Positions 3,581 to 44,518 of a DNA stretch of 64,000 nt are shown piece after piece. A program made the translations under genes and the position numbers. The notes beneath the pieces are model-generated. The model was given only the letters and a program-made list of their open reading frames with translations, had not been told where the DNA came from and searched no databases. The DNA is from Harriotta raleighana (taxonomy: Eukaryota), in NCBI GenBank assembly GCA_050575255.1, contig JBNZDD010013726.1, forward strand, positions 5,761,678 through 5,825,677, written 5' to 3'. The stretch's first letter is position 1, and the number at the start of each line of letters is the position of its first letter.

Positions 3581-4175
3581 ACAACAACAACTTCGATTTA
3601 TATAACGCCCTCCATGCCGTCTCAGAGCACTTCACAACAACGGATCCCGGAAACGAGCCAGGGCAGGGGTAGAAAGGTGACCAAAGGTGTGGTCAAAGAG
3701 AAAGGTCTTTAGCTGGGAACTGAAACTGGAAAAGAGGGGCGAGGCGAAGGGAGTGAGGAAGGGTGTTCCAGAGCCTCGGGGCGTAGTGGCTGAAGGCACG
3801 GCCACCGAGGGTGGAGTGGAGGATTCAGGGGACACAGAGGAGGCCAGACCACTCAAGGAGGAGTGAAGGTAATGGGTGCTGGTTTGAGGAGAGAGGAGGT
3901 CAGCGAGGTAGGGGGGTGCAGAGGAATGGAAGGATTTGAAAACAATTGTGAGGATCTTGAAATTGATCCTCTCTGGGACAGGGAGCCAGTGAAGTCTGGC
4001 AAAGACTGGGGTAATGGGGGAGCGAAGTTTGGTGCAGGTGAGAATGCGGGCAGGAAGAGTTTTGAATGAGTTGGATTTTATGGATTGTGGTGGAGAGGAG
4101 ACCAGCGAGGAGGGCATTGGAATAGTCCAGCTGAAAGGTGACAAAGGTTTGGATCAGGGTTTCAGCGTTTTTTAT
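3581..4175 (-). mobile_element. L2 LINE 3' fragment with frameshifted ORF2 C-terminus
   Basis: AETLIQTFVTFQLDYSNALL and ITPVFARLHWLPVPERINFKIL are typical L2 ORF2 C-terminal motifs; (GTT)n tail. Confidence 0.88.
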
Positions 4176-6411
4176 GGTCTGTGTCCCTCTCAAATGCAAC
4201 ACGGTTCTATTTATAGGAAGTATATTTTATAATGCTGTTATGTAATATATAGTACTGAATTTAAATTCTTGCCACTGATAACGCACGTTTCACATCGGGA
4301 GAATGCCTCAAAGCACTTCATAGGATTTATGTGTGTATATTTTTTAGGAAAATTATTTATCAATGAGTCAGAGTGCTGATGTGTTTGTGTATCTGGGAAA
4401 ACATTTAATATACACCATGGATGAGATAATTTTCTGAAACATGTTTATCGAAGTACAGAATGAAAGAACAATAATGCAAATAAACCCTAAACTCAATTTT
4501 GTTACAAACATAGGTGTCAAAAGTGGAAATGGAAATGCAAGCCTTCACCCCATGCATATTTTAAACAGATGTATTTTTGTTGTCAAACCAAAGTAATATG
4601 ATTTTAGCCCACTCAGTTTAACTAGTATTTGTCAGCATCTGTTCTTTTCATAAACTAGATTAGGTCACTTAGTGTACAATAAAATCAGAGGGAGCTTGTC
4701 TGCCTCTGTGAGATAAGTTGGCTTAATTAAGCCTGGCCAGTGTAAATCATGAGCCATTTCATGCACATCACTATTTGCACATCTTTTAAAAAAGCTTATG
4801 CCCTTAACATTGAAATAAATTGAAGCACATCTAATAATTTCTAACAATGTCAGGAAATTATCCTATATATACCAAGCTGCTTTTATTTATTGCTGTTTTT
4901 TTGCCTCCCAATGTGGTGGTTTAGGTCATAAATTCAGTTATTCCGCAGCAAATTGGATGCAAACTGTCATTTTTTTGAGGTTATTAAAAGGAATGCATCA
5001 TGTTACATCATTAAGAAAGTTGGCTAATATTCATCCAACAGTAAATCATCCAAAATTATGTGCAAAGCAAAATAACGAAAAAAAATGAGGAGCGGTTTCA
5101 TATGTATCAGAAAATAAATAAAATTTCTCAAAACACCTGAAAGTTGTGATCTCTTAGCTGAAATATAAAATAAACTACCCTTTTGAGAATTGGAATGTGA
5201 TAGAGGCTTTTAATGGACTAAAATATGTGATAAGACTGCAGGAAGCTTGCAAACAATGCGAGGGAATGAGCTAAGGATGGAACGAAGCTCATGAAAACAA
5301 ACCTGAGAGATTTAGACTGTTCAGGTTATACACAGGAGGAAATTAGCACAGATAATTCTGAGCAAGAGATTGCAAAGTTCAGACGAGCCAATATCTGAGT
5401 AGTAGAGCAGGGACCAGGCCAAATGCTGAGAGTAACGCATCCAGGACAGGATTCTCCAGAGGTGTACTGCACAGAAGGATATCCAGAAAGCAAGCAGCAA
5501 AAAAAATCCATATTATTGAAGCTAATCAGGTGTTCAATTCATCCATCTCATGACTCAAACGACAGCAGGACAATGAGTGATCTGGGACAGAAAGTATTGC
5601 AATCAGACTGTTAGAGTCATCAATATATCTATTATTGTACACTTGATATATCATCATCGTTGACTGGTGTACCTCAGGAATCTGAAGTTGACTAGATAAC
5701 AATGCAGCTTCACTCTCAAATTGACTCAGAGGACTGCTTTTGTTCAGCATGGACACACTGTAGAATGTTGCAGCACGCACTGAACTCTCACCATATGGAC
5801 CCTCATCGCCTGAATTTATGCTGGTATAAGTGGCTTGCTTAGAGCCAGTAAATTGGCTGTGAAAAGTTAAATTAGACTAATATAGTTAGAGCTCATTTAA
5901 GTCCAGTAATACATGCTATGGTCAAATTGTTTATTTCTCAAAAATTATACTTCGACTTGCATTTCATCAAAGTGAAGGAAATAAGACCTTGTAGTTGGAT
6001 GATTCACAGCAGATTGATATTCAGGCACAAAGAACCATCTGTGGCCAAAGATTAATGCAAGACAATGAGATGCATTCAACAGTATTTCATATTTGCTTTG
6101 GTACATGTTCCATTCCCTGCTATCCCTTCCCCAATGTCTCGTTAGCAATTAGTGACTCAAATCTAGTTTGTGAATATTACATTTGGGAACCCACTGTGTG
6201 ATGTATGAAAAAAGATCTCACTTTCATTTTGATTGTTGAAAGTTAAATACAGTATACAAGTATGATTGATGCACAAAAGCAATTTGGGATGGAACCATGC
6301 TACCATAGCCAACAATCATCCTTTTCTCTGGGTGTCCAGTAGGCTTTGTGCTACCTAACTTAAGAAACTTTCTAAAGATTATAGGTAAACTTTCGTTTTA
6401 TACCCCAAAAT

Positions 6412-27435: not shown

Positions 27436-28947
27436 TCTTTTTCTTCTCTACCATTTTCAACAAAGCAGGGGAAAAAAGTCTGTTTTAGAAGAAGGAGATC
27501 GCCAGAGACTTTTAAGCCAATTTGCTTCACGTGCTATTGAGACTCATAAACAATCTTCTATCAATGGAACATTGAAAAAAAATCTCCCCAAATCTGAAAG
27601 TAATATCACATATCTGTCCGATGAGAATCCGTTAACTACACGGAACCCTATATATAATGATGGTATATTTAAATCTCCTGATACCGGTGGTTTATCTCGT
27701 AAGAAAAAGCGAGCAATTGTAGCCAATCCTTCACCAAGAATAGTTTCAAAAGATTCATTTTTGAAGCTGTCATCTGAGAGTGAACATGATGCATATACTT
27801 TGTCCTCTCGTGATCACAGGCAGCAAATGCATGATGCTCTGAATAGACCATTGATTATGGATCCCGTGCAGTGTCAGATAGAAATGATTAAAGATGAAGG
27901 GGGAGGAACCGAAAATCAATTGAGCCAAATTAACCCTACTTTTAACGATGCCAAGATTAAATTAACTGTTAAAGAACAAGCGAGACAGTTTGAACAACAA
28001 GCCTTGCAAGAAACGAAGCAAGTCAAAAACCATGACTTAAAAGGAACTCAATCACTGATGACCAGAAAGCATTCCATAAGCAACAATTTGTTTGAGATAC
28101 CTCCAGAGTCCTCCATTTCACCTCCGTCAAATCATCATTCTTTGTCTATTCTGCCATCCAATTTTCAGGTTTCTGTTTCTGAATTGCCTGAGGCACCCTC
28201 CATTATCGTTACTCATTCAGACTTTTCCTCGGATGTTTCTCCTCCTCCAACCCGAACACCGTCACCTCCTTCCACAAGGAAGCAAAGCGAATGCAGCTTC
28301 TTCCCTCGTATATGCATCTCAGTGGAATCAAGCATGGATCTGCTTGATGACATTCCAGAACCTACAAATATTCTGCCACCACCTCCCCCTTCACCCCCAC
28401 TCCTGTCCCTCTCCCCACCTCCTCCTCCACTCCCTTCAGGTTTACCTATTCCTCCACCTTTTTCCTTTTGCCCTCGACCTCCTTCACCCCCACCCCTTCC
28501 TCCANTCCACTCCCTTCAGGTTTACCTATTCCTTCACCTTTTTCCTTTTGCCCTCGACCTCCTTCACCCCCACCCCTTCCTCCAGCCCCACCTCCTCCCC
28601 CTATTACTTTTTCTCTTCCTCTAAAGCCATGTTTGCGCAATACTCCTGCACCTGCTCCTGCCCCCGTTCTTACCTCTCAAAATCAGGCCCCCCAGAGAGA
28701 ATTGAAAGGAATTCTGAAACACATCCAGAACCTCGCAGAGATTGAAAAATCTGTTGCCAACATGCATAGTCAAATAGACAAGAACAATGCAGTGTATAAA
28801 CAGACCGATAAACCAAAAGTCGCAACGCAGCCACAAATGCAAAGGACTGAGGCGTTACCTGAGCCAAGTGTGAATAACCAAAATGGTTTGGAATCTGTTG
28901 TACTTGAACTCAAAAACCATTTCCCATCACAGTCGACGTCTTTGTAA
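27436..28947 (+). CDS. PCDH15: PCDH15 CD1 terminal coding exon (contains an 80-nt artefactual duplication around N28505)
   Basis: ttcaAG|TCTTTTTCTT starts LFLLYHFQQSRG. A Pro-rich region follows, then PQRELKGILKHIQNLAEIEKSVANM and C-terminal QSTSL-stop (PDZ ligand). Removing 79 nt plus the N joins ORFs 27572 and 28468 in one frame. Confidence 0.93.
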
Positions 28948-31544: not shown

Positions 31545-32055
31545 ATCATAGATATTTTAGCACAAAACGAGGTCATTTGGCCTATCGAGTCTGTGCTGGC
31601 TCTTTGAAAAGAGGTATTCAATCCCATTCCCTGGCTCTCTCCCCCTACCCTGCAAACCACTCCTCCCCAAATAACCATCCACCTCTCTCTTAAAAGTTGT
31701 TATTGAATCGGCCTCCTTCACCCTTTCAGGCATTGCATTTAAGTTTCGAACAACTCGCTGCATGAAAAAAATTCTTCTCACCTCCCCTTTCCTTCTTTTA
31801 GAAACTATTTTAAATCTGTGACCTTGAGTCACTGACAGACCCATCACTGGAAACAGTTTTTCCCTGTTTACCCTATCGAATCCCCTCATGATTTCTCCTC
31901 GTAACTTTCTCTGCTCCAATGAAAATAATCCCAGCCTCTCTAGCATTTCCTCATAACCAAAGTCCCACATTTCTGGTATCATCCTGGTAAACCTCCTCTG
32001 CATCCTTTCCAATGCCTAAACATCCTTCCTAAAGTGTGGTGAACAGAACTGAAAA
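31545..32055 (-). mobile_element. CR1 LINE 3' fragment
   Basis: ERMQRRFTRMIPEM...LERLGLFSLEQRKLRG...GHRFK is the typical CR1 ORF2 C-terminus. Confidence 0.9.
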
Positions 32056-36871: not shown

Positions 36872-36893
36872 GAGAGGATATGGACAACAAGAG
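36872..36893 (+). CDS. PCDH15: PCDH15 alternative 22-nt exon (RGYGQQE)
   Basis: ttgcAG|GAGAGGATATGGACAACAAGAG|GTAAGA. Phase 2 to 0, which is what the next two exons need. Confidence 0.7.
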
Positions 36894-37058: not shown

Positions 37059-37097
37059 CAACAGCAATTACTGAGGCCCTCACTGCTTAGACCTGAG
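37059..37097 (+). CDS. PCDH15: PCDH15 alternative 39-nt exon (QQQLLRPSLLRPE)
   Basis: CT-rich tract, gccAG|CAACAG...CCTGAG|GTACAA. A second in-frame acceptor allows a start at 37065. Resembles the recalled LLRPSLLKPE segment of PCDH15 isoforms. Confidence 0.75.
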
Positions 37098-37286: not shown

Positions 37287-37360
37287 GAACTCTCAATGGA
37301 ATCTGGCATTGATCCTGGTCAGGAATACTATGCACAGGATTATTACAATTATGAGCCTGG
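37287..37360 (+). CDS. PCDH15: PCDH15 alternative 74-nt exon (ELSMESGIDPGQEYYAQDYYNYEPG)
   Basis: aatAG|GAACTC...CCTGG|GTAAGC. Phase 0 to 2. Resembles recalled ELSMESGIDPGQEYGQDYYSYEHG. Confidence 0.85.
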
Positions 37361-38626: not shown

Positions 38627-38762
38627 GTATGAAGTGCCACAGTATGGAAGTCGTCGTAGATTAATCTCCCCATCTGGTATGTACGACGAATTTGGAGAGG
38701 TAATAATGGAAGATGATGGAAGCTACTATTACAGTCCAGATGGATCTAACGCAGCTCCAGAG
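38627..38762 (+). CDS. PCDH15: PCDH15 exon shared by CD2 and CD3 isoforms (136 nt)
   Basis: ttctAG|GTATGAAGTG...CCAGAG|GTAAAT. Encodes YEVPQYGSRRRLISPSGMYDEFGEVIMEDDGSYYYSPDGSNAAPE; the mammalian counterpart is YEMPQYGSRRRLLP. Phase 2 to 0. Confidence 0.92.
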
Positions 38763-40935
38763 GTAAATTAATTGTTTTTATTTTGCTGAATTTCTTTTGC
38801 GGTATTTGATAAAACAAGAATAATTTTAATTTCTCCCCCGAAAGCAACAACCATTTTGCAAGATACGCAAAAAAAAGGGAGAATCATATTTATAATAATG
38901 ACTACTTTCTTCTTTTGATCCATTCTTATCTTATGTGTTGATATATATTAATGATTAAACCAATATTGATTTAATTCAAGAGCAGTTTTCCATTACCAGC
39001 CAATTCTTATCAGCAGAGTGTAGCCACATAAAGAATCAGCCTTGGATGTCCCAACTGGTGGATGATGTTCAGTGTAGCTATATGCTTTTCTAATAAGGCA
39101 GTAATGAGAGAGGTCTTTCCAGCTAATGGCATCAGCCAACTTCTGTTTCATAGTCCAACCAGGTAACTTTCATGTATGTGGTTCTTATCTTAAAGCAATA
39201 TCCAGTAAATTGGAAATCAGTCCAATTATACTGAGTCAACATTTGCTGTATTACATGAAGATCTGAGCCATGATTCAACTCTTAGTATGAGCAATTGGCT
39301 CATTAAACTGGTTTGCTTCAGGGGTTTCTCAGTTTATAATCTTATCTTCTGGTTCTACTGTCCTATCTTTGCACAGAGTAACTATCTACATCAGCCTTTT
39401 TACTTCCCTTTGAGTTTAAAGACATGTTATTCCCGTTTAGAATATATCTAATTATCTTTGTCTCATTTCATAGCTCAGTGATTTAAAATCTGGAATTATT
39501 TTTGCTGCCATCCTCCAATACATTTCTATTACTTTATTAAAAAAAAGTAGATCCCAACCTTTTATATACACGGGGTGATCAAAAAAGGTTTGATACCATT
39601 GTAGTGTCTAATAAGTCTTAAAGAAATTATGATATTTTCATTTTTTTTAGATAAAAGGGCATCTTTTTGGTAACCCAGTATATGAAATTACAATGAGTTA
39701 AGTAATCTGGGTTAGTTTGAAGTTACAAAACACACTTGTCACACCAACACTGTCAATGTCCCTAATGTAATGATGTAACCTTCTTTTGTGAGTTTCAGTA
39801 ACTTGCATTTGCCCACACGAAATTACTGCTTGTGATATATCTNTTGATCATCTGTTTCCCTGAGTTGACACATTCCCTAATGTAATGATGTAACCTTCTT
39901 TTGTGAGTTTCAGTAACTTGCATTTGCCCACACGAAATTACTGCTTGTGATATATCTCTTCTCCTAAGCATCTATTGGTTTCATTCAGATTTACTCCTTT
40001 AATTTATATGTCTTTTCAACACACACAATCTGGTATTGTTTGCATATGTCTAATACCTTCATCAACACCATCAACAAACATTGAAAACAGAAGAGGACCC
40101 AACAAAGACTTTTGAAATGCACTACAGTCTAATTACTCTCATTGAACAATGTGTTTTGTAGCTATTATTTAGCTAACTTTATTATGCAATTTATATTCAT
40201 CTTGGTTTCAAGAGCTTTGTACTACTCACTCAAATAATTCAGTAATATTTATTAAATGTGGATTGTGATTTATAAACTCCTGATAACCTGGGCATTATTG
40301 CTCTTTTCTTGCTTTTAAATGGTTCCTTTTATACAATGTTAGTAGCCATTGTTTGTCAAAATCTCAATCTAATAGTCCAATAATTTGTGTGATCATGATT
40401 TATCTTATTCAAAGATTGTCTATTTATCGTCTATATTTAATGAGCAATAGAAACATTTCCTAAAGCATGCTAAGATACTACAGTATATATACCAGGCTTT
40501 TACATGAATTGCACATGTAGAGCTCCCCTTCACTCCAGCAAAGCTGCTGTTTCCTTTCAAACAATCTCAGTTGATCTGGTGGTGTACTTTCCCCTAAAAT
40601 GTAACCTTCTGCTGTGTGTCTGCGATCTTTTTGACCTCAGGCAACTTATGACAACTTATGACCTCAGGGAAAACTATCTACTACCAGAACAACTATGTTG
40701 TTTATGCTCAACACACTGCCAGATAAGACAGATATAAGAACTAAGTTTTTTTAAAAATTCAAATGTGAAGATAAACACTGGGGTTGAAATTACAATGAGT
40801 TAAGTAATCTGGGTTAGTTTGAAGTTACAAACAGCATCTCCTGTGACTGAACTATTCAATCATTTAATTCTCAACTAACCGAATTTCACTGTATTGAACG
40901 CAATGTTTAATCTGATTGCATTTTCATAATTACAG

Positions 40936-43098
40936 GGAGCGGATGAACACCAAGGTCCTGTTAGGAAGAGTAGAATTCAGGAAGCAAGAGATCAGGCAGA
41001 GGCAGGGATGTCAAGTAGTGAGGCTTTAGGCCCAACAGGTGTTTCAGAAGGAACTGCTGAGTTGGGGAATGCCTCGCTGGCTGCAGATGAAGCTGTGCAA
41101 GGAACTGCGCGTGAAGAAGGAAGGAAAAAGCTAAAGGGTGTGCTACAGATTAGCAAACTAGCAGCAGGTGGTGTGTCATCTAAACAGCAGATGGACGGAG
41201 AGCAACAAGTGGGAACTCCCATTGCTTTTCATTCTCCGTGGAAAAAGGCAAGAATATTTCCTATGATACTTCAGAAGGTAAAGGCAAGCAGCAAAGATTC
41301 CAGTTATGCCAAACTTGTGTCTGCACGTCGTGTGGATAGCCAAGAGAGTGTAGCGAGTGCATCTTCGGGAAGTGTGGTCAGCGGAACATCTGGTCAGAAA
41401 TCAGCCAAAGGTAAGCCGACAGAGAAAAAAAAGATGGGCAAAGTGCTTAAGCATATCGCCATCTCCAAACAGTTAAAATCCAGGCGTAAATCACAGGGGT
41501 CCATCAGTAAAAGTTCAGCTGCTGAGAGTGAACCAGAGGCAACATCCCAAACCCAGGGTAGCAGTGAATCAGAAAAGGAACAGAAGAAGTCAAAAGTTGC
41601 GATTAGTGTCACCGGAGAGAGTGATCAGGAAAAAAGTGCGACCTCCGAGGACGATGGTGATGGATCGAAGAAGAGACGGGATTCCTCGAAAACGTCCGGA
41701 GATGACCAGTCACAAAGGAGTAGTGTCCAACAGTCACAGACTGAAGAAAAAGAATATCTTAAAGTGACACTGGATCAGGATGAAACCAATGAAAGTACAG
41801 TGGACTCTGATGAAGAAAAAGATGATGAATCAGTGGGAACAGAGGATGACGACAAGTCAAAGATTGACTCTGAGGCAGGAGAAGCAGAATCAGAGGACGG
41901 TGGTACTTCAGAAGGTGCAGATTCTGACAAAGAATCAAAGAGTGAAATCTCTGATAAATCTAGTTCTGGAAGTGGCCAGAGTTCACAGAGTAGAGCTTCT
42001 GATACAGAAGGTCAAGATTCAGCATCGAGAGCATCGGGCAGAACCGAATCCAATGCTGAGGAAATATCTGATGAATCTAATGGCGATGGTAGCACTAGCA
42101 GAACAACAGAATCCAAAACTAGATCAAGTACATTTAGCAAAGGGAGTGTTACCAGCAGGAGTACGTCGATAGCAACTGAAGGAACAGAGATGTCAGATAG
42201 TTCCATAGACAGCGAGGCAAGTCAGCAAACATCACATGTAGGTAGTTCTCAAGGAAAGTCCAACCTGTCAACTCAGACAAGCACATCAAGCACGAAAACA
42301 GATGCGACAACAGGGGGTAGTAGTTCTTCACATGGGTCTTTTTCAGGGAGTGGATCATGTGTAAGAAAATCAACATCTGTCACTGAAGAAAGTCAAAGTT
42401 TCACATCCAAAGCGTCAGCCTCTGCCAGCGATTTTGAAGCAATTCAGGAGGAATCTGATGAAGATGTCATGTCTGAAGACATCACGTCCGAAGACAATGA
42501 AGACGGTGAAAGTAAAATCAGTGAATGTAGAAGTCAAGAAGAGGAAGAGTCTGGGAACAGTAGCGATGGAACAAAATTTGGAACATCAATCAGTCAAAAC
42601 AGTATCAATAGTGAAAATAGGAGTGAGAGCAGATATAGTCAATCAACAGACGCACAGACTGACAGTGCTGGAAATAGTATGAGGAGAATAAACACTGATC
42701 AGTCAGATTACAATGACAGTGATGATGTCAGTCAAGAAACGGTTTCACAACAAATAACTATTAGTAGTGCATTCAGTGAAAGCAGGTTAAAAAGCTTGAA
42801 GAGCAATTATAGTGACAATACTGAACTCTCCAGAATCAGTGATGGAAGCAGCTTGAGACGTAGTTTGACAAGTGCAGCAGATTCTAATCAAAGCGAGATT
42901 TCAGGTTATTCTGAAAGAAGTAGCAGAAGGAGCAAGGCAAGGAGAAAGAGTGGAAGTTTAAGCGAAGGAACATCTTCAGAATATAATGAATCCAGCAGTG
43001 TCGGAGGAGGCCTGCAAGAATCAGCCGAGGACAATGAAGAACTAGATGAAGAAATATCAGAAGCAGAAAGTGTTCAGGACACAGTGACATCATTATAA
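40936..43098 (+). CDS. PCDH15: PCDH15 CD2-type terminal coding exon, 720 codons, Ser/Glu/Asp-rich
   Basis: ttacAG|GGAGCG, phase 0, in frame with ORF 41008..43098. Contains WKKARIFPMILQKV and EEKEYLKVTLDQDETNESTVDSDEE, matching recalled human CD2 WKRARIFPMIFKKV and EEDKDYLKLTLDQEEATESTVESEEE. Ends VTSL-stop. Lies between the shared exon and CD3. Confidence 0.9.
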   Translation, partial: GADEHQGPVRKSRIQEARDQAEAGMSSSEALGPTGVSEGTAELGNASLAADEAVQGTAREEGRKKLKGVLQISKLAAGGVSSKQQMDGEQQVGTPIAFHSPWKKARIFPMILQKVKASSKDSSYAKLVSARRVDSQESVASASSGSVVSGTSGQKSAKGKPTEKKKMGKVLKHIAISKQLKSRRKSQGSISKSSAAESEPEATSQTQGSSESEKEQKKSKVAISVTGESDQEKSATSEDDGDGSKKRRDSSKTSGDDQSQRSSVQQSQTEEKEYLKVTLDQDETNESTVDSDEEKDDESVGTEDDDKSKIDSEAGEAESEDGGTSEGADSDKESKSEISDKSSSGSGQSSQSRASDTEGQDSASRASGRTESNAEEISDESNGDGSTSRTTESKTRSSTFSKGSVTSRSTSIATEGTEMSDSSIDSEASQQTSHVGSSQGKSNLSTQTSTSSTKTDATTGGSSSSHGSFSGSGSCVRKSTSVTEESQSFTSKASASASDFEAIQEESDEDVMSEDITSEDNEDGESKISECRSQEEEESGNSSDGTKFGTSISQNSINSENRSESRYSQSTDAQTDSAGNSMRRINTDQSDYNDSDDVSQETVSQQITISSAFSESRLKSLKSNYSDNTELSRISDGSSLRRSLTSAADSNQSEISGYSERSSRRSKARRKSGSLSEGTSSEYNESSSVGGGLQESAEDNEELDEEISEAESVQDTVTSL

Positions 43099-43314
43099 AA
43101 AGAATGGAAGGTTCAAAAATAAATTTTGAAAATAGACTTTGATGTTTGCTGTGGAGTTTCCAATTGATTGAGTTTGTGAAACTGGTTTGCTGTGTTTCTT
43201 CAATCGATTTATACTGTAGTGGGCTAAATTAACCATGATTTTCCATGGATTCCCGAGCGTAAAAGCAGCCAGATTTCCTGCTCCCAATACCTCTACACAG
43301 TGTCCTTCACTTCT

Positions 43315-43461: not shown

Positions 43462-43467
43462 AATAAA
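43462..43467 (+). promoter_or_regulatory. Candidate poly(A) signal for the CD2 3'UTR
   Basis: AATAAA between the CD2 stop and the CD3 acceptor; another lies at 43118. Confidence 0.35.
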
Positions 43468-43942: not shown

Positions 43943-44518
43943 TGGGCTCGACAGAAACGCGTGAAGTTGGTTGTAGATCGCGAGTATGAAACCAGCTCAA
44001 CTGGTGAGGACAGTGCACCAGAAGCACAAAGAATTCGTATTAAGCACCCGAATAACCACAGCAACATTAATAGTAACATCTATATTGCTCAAAATGGATC
44101 GATCGTCAGAACAAGGCGCGGTTGCCATCCAAGCAACTCAAAAGCAAACTCACCTGCACGAGTCGGAAAACAGTTCAAAAAATTGGATAAACTGGCAGTC
44201 ACGCAGGAAGAAAAAGTTCCTTTGAGCAATCCGCTGGAAAAGCCAACGGCTTCTTGCAGCAATGCCAACCCTAACGCAAGGGCCTCATCTGGCTCTGTGG
44301 GCTCCAGCACCATTGGTCATAACAGCAGCATGTTTAAACTGAGCACATTAAAGACAAGGAATGAGAGAGTAAAAAGCACAGATGACCAAGAGTCAGCTAT
44401 TGATAACGAAGATGTTAAGGAGCCTTTTGAATCTCACAGTGATCAGACACAATCTGATGAGGAAGAGTTGTGGATGGGACCTTGGAATAACCTTCACATA
44501 CCAATGACCAAACTGTGA
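43943..44518 (+). CDS. PCDH15: PCDH15 CD3 terminal coding exon (191 aa)
   Basis: acacAG|TGGGCT, phase 0. Encodes WARQKRVKLVVDREYETSSTGEDSAPE...EELWMGPWNNLHIPMTKL-stop, closely matching the mammalian CD3 ends. Confidence 0.96.
   Translation, partial: WARQKRVKLVVDREYETSSTGEDSAPEAQRIRIKHPNNHSNINSNIYIAQNGSIVRTRRGCHPSNSKANSPARVGKQFKKLDKLAVTQEEKVPLSNPLEKPTASCSNANPNARASSGSVGSSTIGHNSSMFKLSTLKTRNERVKSTDDQESAIDNEDVKEPFESHSDQTQSDEEELWMGPWNNLHIPMTKL

What the first reader, a model, noticed from the sequence alone, without database searches (positions are those of the whole stretch)
40936..43098. Intact, greatly expanded PCDH15-CD2 exon in an apparent cartilaginous fish
Seen: a 720-codon stop-free terminal exon with a phase-0 acceptor, sitting between the shared YEVPQY exon and CD3 and ending in the class I PDZ ligand VTSL. 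It has two motif islands, WKKARIFPM (from 41239) and EEKEYLKVTLDQDETNESTVDSDEE (41743-41817). Known: CD2 is the isoform needed for tip links in mature mammalian cochlear hair cells, and zebrafish is reported to have only CD1 and CD3. Inference: CD2 is ancestral to jawed vertebrates and was lost in teleosts. Here it is more than twice the recalled mammalian length, with about 150 residues between two motifs that are close together in human. Those two islands are the likely functional linear motifs of CD2.
Basis: partly seen in the sequence, partly recalled or inferred. Interest (0 to 1): 0.82.

Follow-up and report, generated by a model that had tools for sequence, protein, structure and literature searches.

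The report
Chimaera hearing-gene tail, ancestral long form
This is the chimaera copy of the tail exon that mammals need for hearing in the tip-link protein protocadherin-15; the long form is normal for fishes, amphibians, reptiles and birds, it was not lost in bony fishes, and the mammalian version looks like the shortened one.

Summary
In detail: 40936-43098 is a 720-codon terminal exon of PCDH15 with a phase-0 acceptor, between the shared YEVPQY exon and CD3, ending VTSL. The source is a chimaera (holocephalan): 602 of 720 residues match a Callorhinchus milii model that already includes this exon. The evolutionary reading is half wrong. CD2 was not lost in teleosts: homologues came up in 18 named teleost species, and a 2026 paper lists and detects CD2 for both zebrafish paralogs. 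Nor is it greatly expanded here: the distance between the two motifs (W to ESTV) is 141-184 residues in 35 of 35 non-mammalian rows and 53 in the one mammal obtained. The long tail is ancestral and mammals contracted it. The two named islands are the only internal ones shared with that mammal, but non-mammals keep four more, including a VxIxVT strand that resembles a proline-less calcineurin docking site. It fails the strict PxIxIT consensus and binding is untested. Most likely function: a disordered, acidic, serine-rich cytoplasmic scaffold ending in a class I PDZ ligand. Ordinary orthologue; modest comparative value.

The parts
20355..20575 (+). PCDH15 exon with end of MAD12/PICA domain and the transmembrane helix (start approximate)
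   Evidence: 70 of 73 residues identical to C. milii
24670..24782 (+). Cytoplasmic common-region exon shared by CD1, CD2 and CD3 (ends approximate)
   Evidence: 37 of 37 residues identical to C. milii; donor AT|gtaagt
27435..28947 (+). CD1 terminal exon ending QSTSL; frame interrupted at the N at 28505, where flanking sequence is duplicated (probable assembly gap; start approximate)
   Evidence: ORFs 27416-28624 and 28351-28947; 50-nt flank duplication at the N
36872..36893 (+). Micro-exon (RGYGQQE) upstream of CD2/CD3
   Evidence: tblastn and ag/gt boundaries
37059..37097 (+). Small exon (QQQLLRPSLLRPE)
   Evidence: tblastn and ag/gt boundaries
37287..37360 (+). Exon ELSMESG...YEPG shared by CD2/CD3
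   Evidence: 25 of 25 residues identical to C. milii
38627..38762 (+). Shared YEVPQY exon with phase-0 donor to CD2 or CD3
   Evidence: 43 of 45 residues identical to C. milii; donor GAG|gtaaat
40936..43098 (+). CD2 alternative terminal exon, 720 codons plus TAA
   Evidence: 602 of 720 identical to C. milii P0001, which joins the same junction
41122..41163 (+). Island A, basic amphipathic segment (aa 63-76); not found in the mammal
   Evidence: mean identity to consensus 0.69 over 35 rows; squirrel score reached by 257 of 500 shuffles
41233..41280 (+). Island B, SPWKKARIFPMILQKV (aa 100-115); shared with the mammal
   Evidence: 0.82; squirrel match reached by 0 of 500 shuffles; blastp 11 of 18 identical
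41293..41331 (+). Island B2, KDSSYAKLVSARR (aa 120-132); not found at this position in the mammal
   Evidence: 0.79; best squirrel match falls on island E instead, 4 of 500 shuffles
41428..41499 (+). Island C, basic amphipathic segment (aa 165-188); eroded in squamates, not found in the mammal
   Evidence: 0.63; 26 of 35 rows at 50% or more; highest helical moment in the tail
41584..41622 (+). Island D, KKSKVAISVTGES (aa 217-229); proline-less PxIxIT-like strand, candidate calcineurin docking site
   Evidence: 0.79; relaxed pattern in 33 of 35 rows and 100 of 100 full spacers, strict pattern in 0 of 100
41746..41820 (+). Island E, EKEYLKVTLDQDETNESTVDSDEEK (aa 271-295); shared with the mammal
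   Evidence: 0.86; squirrel match reached by 0 of 500 shuffles
41821..43083 (+). Ser/Thr-rich acidic low-complexity spacer, poorly conserved
   Evidence: aa 301-720: net charge -47, 36% Ser+Thr; gappy alignment
43084..43098 (+). Class I PDZ-binding motif VTSL and stop codon
   Evidence: T-x-[F/L] ends 66 of 104 homologues (29 end in the CD3 tail, 9 otherwise)
43118..43123 (+). Candidate polyadenylation signal AATAAA (a second one at 43462)
43943..44518 (+). CD3 terminal exon ending MTKL
   Evidence: 157 of 191 identical to Scyliorhinus model

Best explanation
This is the holocephalan orthologue of the PCDH15 CD2 alternative last exon (mouse exon 38), in the long form that the jawed-vertebrate ancestor most likely carried. 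Shown here: exon order, splice phases, vertical descent, conservation pattern. Inferred: the phase-0 donor at 38762 chooses either the acceptor at 40936, with the transcript ending at a poly(A) site before CD3, or the CD3 acceptor at 43943. The CD2 product gives the tip-link and kinociliary-link cadherin a disordered, acidic, serine-rich cytoplasmic tether. Its last four residues dock into class I PDZ scaffolds, as mouse CD2 does with whirlin and NHERF-1. Islands B and E are the ancient linear motifs kept in mammals and are the best candidates for CD2-specific partners such as MYO3A and TMIE (mapping not seen in what I read). Islands A, B2, C and D are further motifs kept in non-mammals and deleted on the mammalian line. 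By analogy with zebrafish, CD2 in this fish is probably a minor isoform tied to kinociliary links rather than the sole tip-link form.
For: 602 of 720 identity and the same junction in the C. milii model. A tree of 35 CD2 N-terminal rows groups chondrichthyans, teleosts and tetrapods each at 100/99. W-to-ESTV distance is 141-184 in 35 of 35 non-mammalian rows and 53 in ground squirrel. Length from PQYGS to the C-terminus: window 762, C. milii 759, bichir 690, gar 689, paddlefish 677, nine teleost models 557-692, two frogs 518-570, turtle 619, three birds 549-570, three squamates 402-451, squirrel 321 (12 hybrid or partial models left out). No Pfam or PDB match; AlphaFold2 mean pLDDT 47.7 with one 6-residue helix. 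Mouse CD2 measured as an expanded disordered chain (10.64898/2026.09.17.752191). PDZ binding of the mouse motif, Thr at -2 critical (PMC13733988; PMC7532178). Zebrafish CD2 expressed but never the major form, and suggested for kinocilial links (PMC13443151). The zebrafish pcdh15a CD2 primers translate to the shared exon and to PEGRGR, the junction region in teleost models.
Against: No RNA data for this species. Only one mammalian CD2 was retrieved (a 'low quality' ground squirrel model), and no monotreme, marsupial, coelacanth, lungfish or cyclostome sequence, so the timing of contraction is open. The two chimaeras are the longest complete forms seen (about 70 aa over gar), so a small holocephalan expansion is not excluded; both elasmobranch models are CD2-CD3 hybrids whose full CD2 length is unknown. 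Composition differs from mammals (net charge per residue -0.065 against -0.163; 11% against 25% Glu), so the mouse polymer behaviour may not carry over. No partner binding was tested.
Confidence: 0.9

Rival explanations
1. One reading: CD2 was lost in teleosts and this exon is a lineage-specific expansion of a mammal-sized ancestral exon.
For: 720 against 284-288 aa; a 2019 paper states zebrafish lack CD2 (PMC6380590); chimaeras are the longest complete forms seen.
Against: CD2 homologues in 18 named teleost species; zebrafish CD2 listed for both paralogs and detected by qRT-PCR; long spacer in 35 of 35 non-mammalian rows; the tree follows species descent.
Confidence: 0.03
2. The exon also or mainly works as an internal cassette that splices from a donor inside CD2 onto CD3, giving a hybrid tail ending MTKL.
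For: 29 of 104 database models carry CD2 sequence and end in CD3. The window has a phase-0 GT at 41278 scoring 4.3, near the real donor's 4.8, on a recalled weight matrix.
Against: Hybrid junctions are scattered, 106 to 450 residues after island E, as expected of gene predictors bridging two last exons. The CD2 end is conserved as T-x-[F/L] in 66 of 104 models, and poly(A) signals precede CD3.
Confidence: 0.07
3. The ORF is an independent low-complexity gene or a non-functional open frame inside the PCDH15 locus.
For: Some bird models label this sequence as FLO11-like, dentin-protein-like or adhesin-like. The first Met is at residue 25.
Against: Clean acceptor with a 100-nt AG-free zone, in phase with the upstream exon; most hits are full-length protocadherin-15 models; motif-level match to mammalian CD2.
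Confidence: 0.02

Closest known systems
Callorhinchus milii protocadherin-15 model (P0001, named protocadherin-15b by NCBI, 2250 aa)
   Same: Same exon, same junction, 717-aa CD2, same C-terminal DTVTSL, 602 of 720 identical.
   Different: A different holocephalan species (about 16% divergence in CD2, 0-12% in the upstream exons compared). Whether the model has RNA support was not seen.
Mammalian PCDH15-CD2 (mouse exon 38; ground squirrel P0206)
   Same: Position in the gene, islands B and E in the same order, class I PDZ ligand with Thr at -2, acidic disordered character.
   Different: 284-288 aa against 720; W-to-ESTV 53 against 184; lacks islands A, B2, C and D; Glu-rich rather than Ser-rich; carries a canonical PxIxIT at the exon start that the window lacks.
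Teleost pcdh15a/b CD2 (zebrafish XP_073775498, XP_073773690 as listed in PMC13443151)
   Same: Long form; islands A-E present in the teleost models aligned.
   Different: Two paralogs; island B diverged in percomorphs; an RVxF-like word near the exon start that the window lacks; mostly ends in Phe. The zebrafish sequences themselves were not retrieved.
AKAP79 IAIIIT calcineurin docking site
   Same: Hydrophobic residue instead of Pro at position 1, then x-I-x-hydrophobic-T, in a disordered chain (PMC6728138).
   Different: Island D has Val at position 1 in the window (Ile in sturgeons, amphibians and most reptiles); no binding data.

Membership tests
PCDH15-CD2 isoform | Lies in a PCDH15 locus downstream of EC11, MAD12, transmembrane and common-region exons | tested here: met
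PCDH15-CD2 isoform | Alternative last exon between the CD2/CD3-shared exon and CD3, in frame | tested here: met
   phase-0 donor at 38762, phase-0 acceptors at 40936 and 43943
PCDH15-CD2 isoform | Sequence homology to the mammalian CD2-specific region | tested here: met
   islands B and E collinear in ground squirrel CD2, 0 of 500 shuffles each; one mammal only
PCDH15-CD2 isoform | [quoted passage not shown] | tested here: met
   VTSL; definition from PMC13733988
PCDH15-CD2 isoform | Intrinsically disordered, strongly acidic tail | tested here: inconclusive
   disorder-like (pLDDT 47.7 for aa 60-300; no Pfam or PDB match) and net charge -47, but charged fraction 0.30 against 0.39 in mouse and 0.42 in squirrel
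PCDH15-CD2 isoform | Spliced transcript expressed in hair cells or photoreceptors of this species | not testable with these tools
   no RNA data; only the zebrafish analogue
PCDH15-CD2 isoform | Localises to tip or kinociliary links and binds TMIE, MYO3A, whirlin, NHERF-1 | not testable with these tools
   known for mouse only
Calcineurin PxIxIT docking motif (island D) | Published consensus P[^PG][FILV][^PG][FILV][^PG], Pro at position 1 | tested here: not met
   0 of 100 full spacers; consensus from 10.1101/632547
Calcineurin PxIxIT docking motif (island D) | Proline-less variant with a hydrophobic residue at position 1, as in AKAP79 | tested here: inconclusive
   pattern present in 33 of 35 rows at one position and 100 of 100 spacers, 97 ending in Thr; the relaxed pattern is recalled or fitted, 10-19% of shuffled tails match somewhere; precedent in PMC6728138
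Calcineurin PxIxIT docking motif (island D) | Binds the calcineurin A beta-strand groove | not testable with these tools

The most novel reading that the evidence does not exclude
The CD2 tail that mammals need for hearing is a cut-down form of a roughly 650-720-residue ancestral tail. The mammalian line deleted about 130 residues between islands B and E, and island A, and in doing so lost an ancient proline-less calcineurin docking strand (island D) while gaining a canonical PxIxIT at the start of the exon. Calcineurin docking would then have been kept by motif turnover across all jawed vertebrates. That would give independent evolutionary support for calcium-dependent dephosphorylation of the CD2 tail, and would single out B, E and the PDZ ligand as the minimal ancient core to mutate or to keep in mini-PCDH15 designs.
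Probability: 0.2. Interest if true: 0.65.

Novelty: new member of a known kind. Interest (0 to 1): 0.32.

Why it matters
The exon itself is already modelled in the elephant shark and CD2 is now recognised in zebrafish, so the headline claims (hidden exon, teleost loss) add little. What remains useful is the comparison. It reduces the 284-residue hearing-essential mammalian tail to two internal motifs and a PDZ ligand conserved from a chimaera to a mammal. It shows mammals as the contracted lineage. It also flags four motifs kept only in non-mammals, one of which may dock calcineurin. The one biophysical study of CD2 that I read aligned six mammals only, and my searches found no paper on CD2 evolution outside mammals and zebrafish. 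The library lacks most subscription journals, so this is weak evidence of novelty. Arguments built on zebrafish lacking CD2 (PMC6380590) need another look.

Tried and rejected
PDB sequence search with the CD2 ORF: 0 matches at E up to 10. Pfam: 0 families for CD2, CD3 and the shared exon. ESM Atlas on aa 60-300: no usable hit. AlphaFold2 on aa 60-300 with 23 rows: no fold, so no fold search was run. Mammalian CD2 did not appear in two homologue searches or among the 11 hits of the representative search (one of these, P0135, is an unrelated repeat protein). The third search gave one mammal among 120 listed of 159 hits. No cyclostome, coelacanth or lungfish name appeared, which is weak evidence given word-limited searches. 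Direct homology between island D and the mammalian PxIxIT: an unfiltered blastp aligns them and the best profile match falls there, but 104 of 500 shuffles score as well and the motifs lie on opposite sides of island B; rejected as homology. Tyrosine phosphorylation as the role of island E: the conserved Tyr is suggestive, but mice with all six CD2 tyrosines changed to Phe resembled wild type in bundle polarity (PMC12370195). Hand-tuned motif tallies were discarded in favour of alignment-based scores; that script stopped part-way. Conserved CD2-to-CD3 hybrid splicing: junctions not conserved. No complex prediction was sent, as no partner sequence was in hand. No DNA of related vertebrates is available, so no dN/dS and no species-level identification.

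Full report
Observation. The window from 40936 reads 720 sense codons and a TAA, ending DTVTSL. The exon begins after ttacag in phase 0. No other AG occurs between 40833 and the acceptor, and branch-point-like pentamers lie at 40875 and 40912. The upstream exon 38627-38762 ends GAG|gtaaat in phase 0, and CD3 begins at 43943 in phase 0. AATAAA occurs at 43118 and 43462. In 1000 base shuffles the longest stop-free run was 245 codons. The two motifs are at the stated coordinates, 159 residues apart.

Source and gene. The best of 104 hits to residues 90-300 was a Callorhinchus milii protocadherin-15 model. It matches the window's upstream exons at 88-100% and the whole CD2 exon at 602 of 720 residues, against 337 for Scyliorhinus and 284 for Narcine (both of those are CD2-CD3 hybrid models). 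It joins the shared exon to CD2 at the same point and has a 717-residue CD2. In a tree of 35 rows (window plus 34 non-mammalian models that I picked from the hits, mostly one per species) the window is sister to Callorhinchus at 100/99, and chondrichthyans, teleosts and tetrapods each form one side of a 100/99 branch. The source is a holocephalan other than C. milii; the species was not determined. The window also holds exons for the last cadherin repeat, MAD12, the transmembrane helix, the common region, CD1, three small shared exons and CD3.

Not lost in teleosts. Named teleost hits covered 14 species (moray, carp, Paramormyrops with two copies, Denticeps, medaka, killifishes, pipefishes, darter, damselfish, stickleback) and four more. 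PMC13443151 (abstract, passages, and part 1 of 2 of supplement 1 read; one supplement was unreadable) states that both zebrafish paralogs have CD1, CD2 and CD3, lists the CD2 accessions (2123 aa for pcdh15a, 1943-1961 aa for pcdh15b), and reports CD2 transcripts in eye and ear that are never the major form. Its pcdh15a CD2 primers translate to RRLITP, in the shared exon, and PEGRGR, which matches the junction region of teleost models; I infer that the amplicon crosses the orthologous junction.

Not greatly expanded. The distance from the Trp of island B to ESTV of island E is 141-184 in 35 of 35 non-mammalian rows and 53 in the only mammalian CD2 retrieved, a ground squirrel model. From PQYGS to the C-terminus the 22 complete non-mammalian models measure 402-759 residues (C. 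milii 759, stickleback 692, bichir 690, gar 689, turtle 619, chicken 561, gecko 402), the window 762 and the squirrel 321; 12 hybrid or partial models were left out (the script printed 763 for the window through an offset of mine, the direct count is 42 + 720). Mouse CD2 has a 284-residue specific region (PMC4119359, passages). Both branches of jawed vertebrates carry the long form, so by parsimony it is ancestral and mammals are the most contracted. Against this: one mammal only, no monotreme or marsupial, no outgroup, and chimaeras are about 70 residues longer than the next complete models.

Motifs. Column conservation shows six islands in the first 300 residues: A (63-76), B (100-115), B2 (120-132), C (165-188), D (217-229) and E (271-295), with mean identity to consensus of 0.69, 0.82, 0.79, 0.63, 0.79 and 0.86 over 35 rows. 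C, B and A are basic and rank among the segments of highest helical moment; calmodulin or membrane binding is a recalled resemblance, untested. The C-terminus is T-x-[F/L] in 66 of 104 homologues (64 Phe, 2 Leu); 29 end in the CD3 tail and 9 otherwise.

Island D. A preprint on mouse CD2 (10.64898/2026.09.17.752191; abstract, introduction, sections 3.4, 3.5, 5.13, first part of the discussion and passages read; supplements closed) shows an expanded disordered chain and proposes a calcineurin PxIxIT site, KPKVEIR, from an alignment of six mammals. The squirrel has it at the exon start; the window does not. Island D reads VAISVT. It fails the published consensus, which needs Pro at position 1 (10.1101/632547, passages; PMC13596366, passage): 0 of 100 full spacers match. 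A proline-less pattern matches 33 of 35 rows at this one position and 100 of 100 spacers (the hits are bird-heavy and not independent), and AKAP79's IAIIIT is a solved precedent with Ile in the Pro pocket (PMC6728138, passages). That relaxed pattern is recalled or fitted, and 10-19% of shuffled tails match it somewhere. D is not homologous to the mammalian site by my test. It is a lead, at about 0.2.

Likely working. Shown: a vertically inherited alternative last exon, no folded domain, net charge -47 and 31% Ser+Thr. Inferred from mouse: the C-terminal motif binds PDZ scaffolds, whirlin at 8.5 uM (PMC7532178, passages) and NHERF-1 PDZ1 through the Thr at -2 (PMC13733988, passages); MYO3A transports CD2 but not CD1 or CD3 (PMC9374675, passages); TMIE binds CD2 (PMC6380590). 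B and E are the natural candidates for such CD2-specific contacts, though I saw no mapping. Tyrosine phosphorylation is unlikely to be their essential role, since a six-tyrosine mutant mouse looked normal in bundle polarity (PMC12370195, passages). The chimaera tail is less charged per residue than the mammalian one (-0.065 against -0.163), so its mechanics may differ. From zebrafish, a kinociliary-link role as a minor isoform is the better guess for a fish (the authors did not test it).

Novelty. The exon is a new member of a known kind, already modelled in a close relative. Searches for prior comparative work (listings only, apart from the papers named) found none on CD2 in cartilaginous fishes or on its contraction in mammals; a paper on selection in hearing genes reported, in the passages shown, ectodomain and PICA sites (PMC8594068). 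The library omits most subscription journals. Left unchecked: junction reads, species identity, cyclostome and basal mammal loci, names of the unnamed hits, and all partner binding. Interest 0.32.

Noticed in passing
window 17972, 26037, 28505, 39843, 52512, 55222, 59168: Seven single Ns; six have 33-84 nt of their left flank repeated to the right, which looks like unmerged assembly overlaps. The one at 28505 breaks the frame of the CD1 exon in its proline-rich stretch, so CD1 is probably intact in the animal.
   Followed up: partly
window 39683-39729 and 40785-40831: An exact 47-nt direct repeat 1102 nt apart in the intron before CD2, the second copy about 105 nt from the acceptor. Origin unexplained.
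   Followed up: no
window about 39563-39684: A 120-nt element with imperfect terminal inverted repeats flanked by TA runs, like a small DNA-transposon remnant (the class is recalled, not tested).
   Followed up: no
window 41278 and 41411: Strong GT donor-like sites inside the CD2 exon: phase 0 at the end of island B (score 4.3) and phase 1 (7.1), against 4.8 for the real upstream donor, on a recalled matrix.
   Followed up: partly
database models, e.g. P0003, P0011, P0046, P0118: 29 of 104 models fuse part of CD2 to CD3 at scattered junctions, probably predictor artefacts that hide the true CD2 end.
   Followed up: partly
P0106, P0110, P0112, P0113: Bird CD2-containing models are named FLO11-like, dentin sialophosphoprotein-like, dentin matrix protein-like and serine-rich adhesin-like, which helps explain why non-mammalian CD2 was overlooked.
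   Followed up: no
start of CD2 in gar and teleost models (P0002, P0067, P0081 and others): An RVxF-like word (possible protein phosphatase 1 docking, pattern recalled) in gar and 9 of 13 teleost rows, where the mammal has its PxIxIT; absent from the window (three teleost rows were trimmed at that spot).
   Followed up: no
C-termini of homologues: The last residue of CD2 is Phe in 64 of 66 CD2-terminated models and Leu in C. milii and one darter, as in the window and the squirrel, which may shift PDZ preference.
   Followed up: no
P0116 (Sphaerodactylus model): The model repeats the MAD12-to-shared-exon block after a partial CD2, suggesting a local duplication or misassembly.
   Followed up: no
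window 3632-4226 and 31557-32015 (minus strand): Intronic ORFs that look like fragments of LINE-type reverse transcriptase (resemblance recalled, not tested).
   Followed up: no
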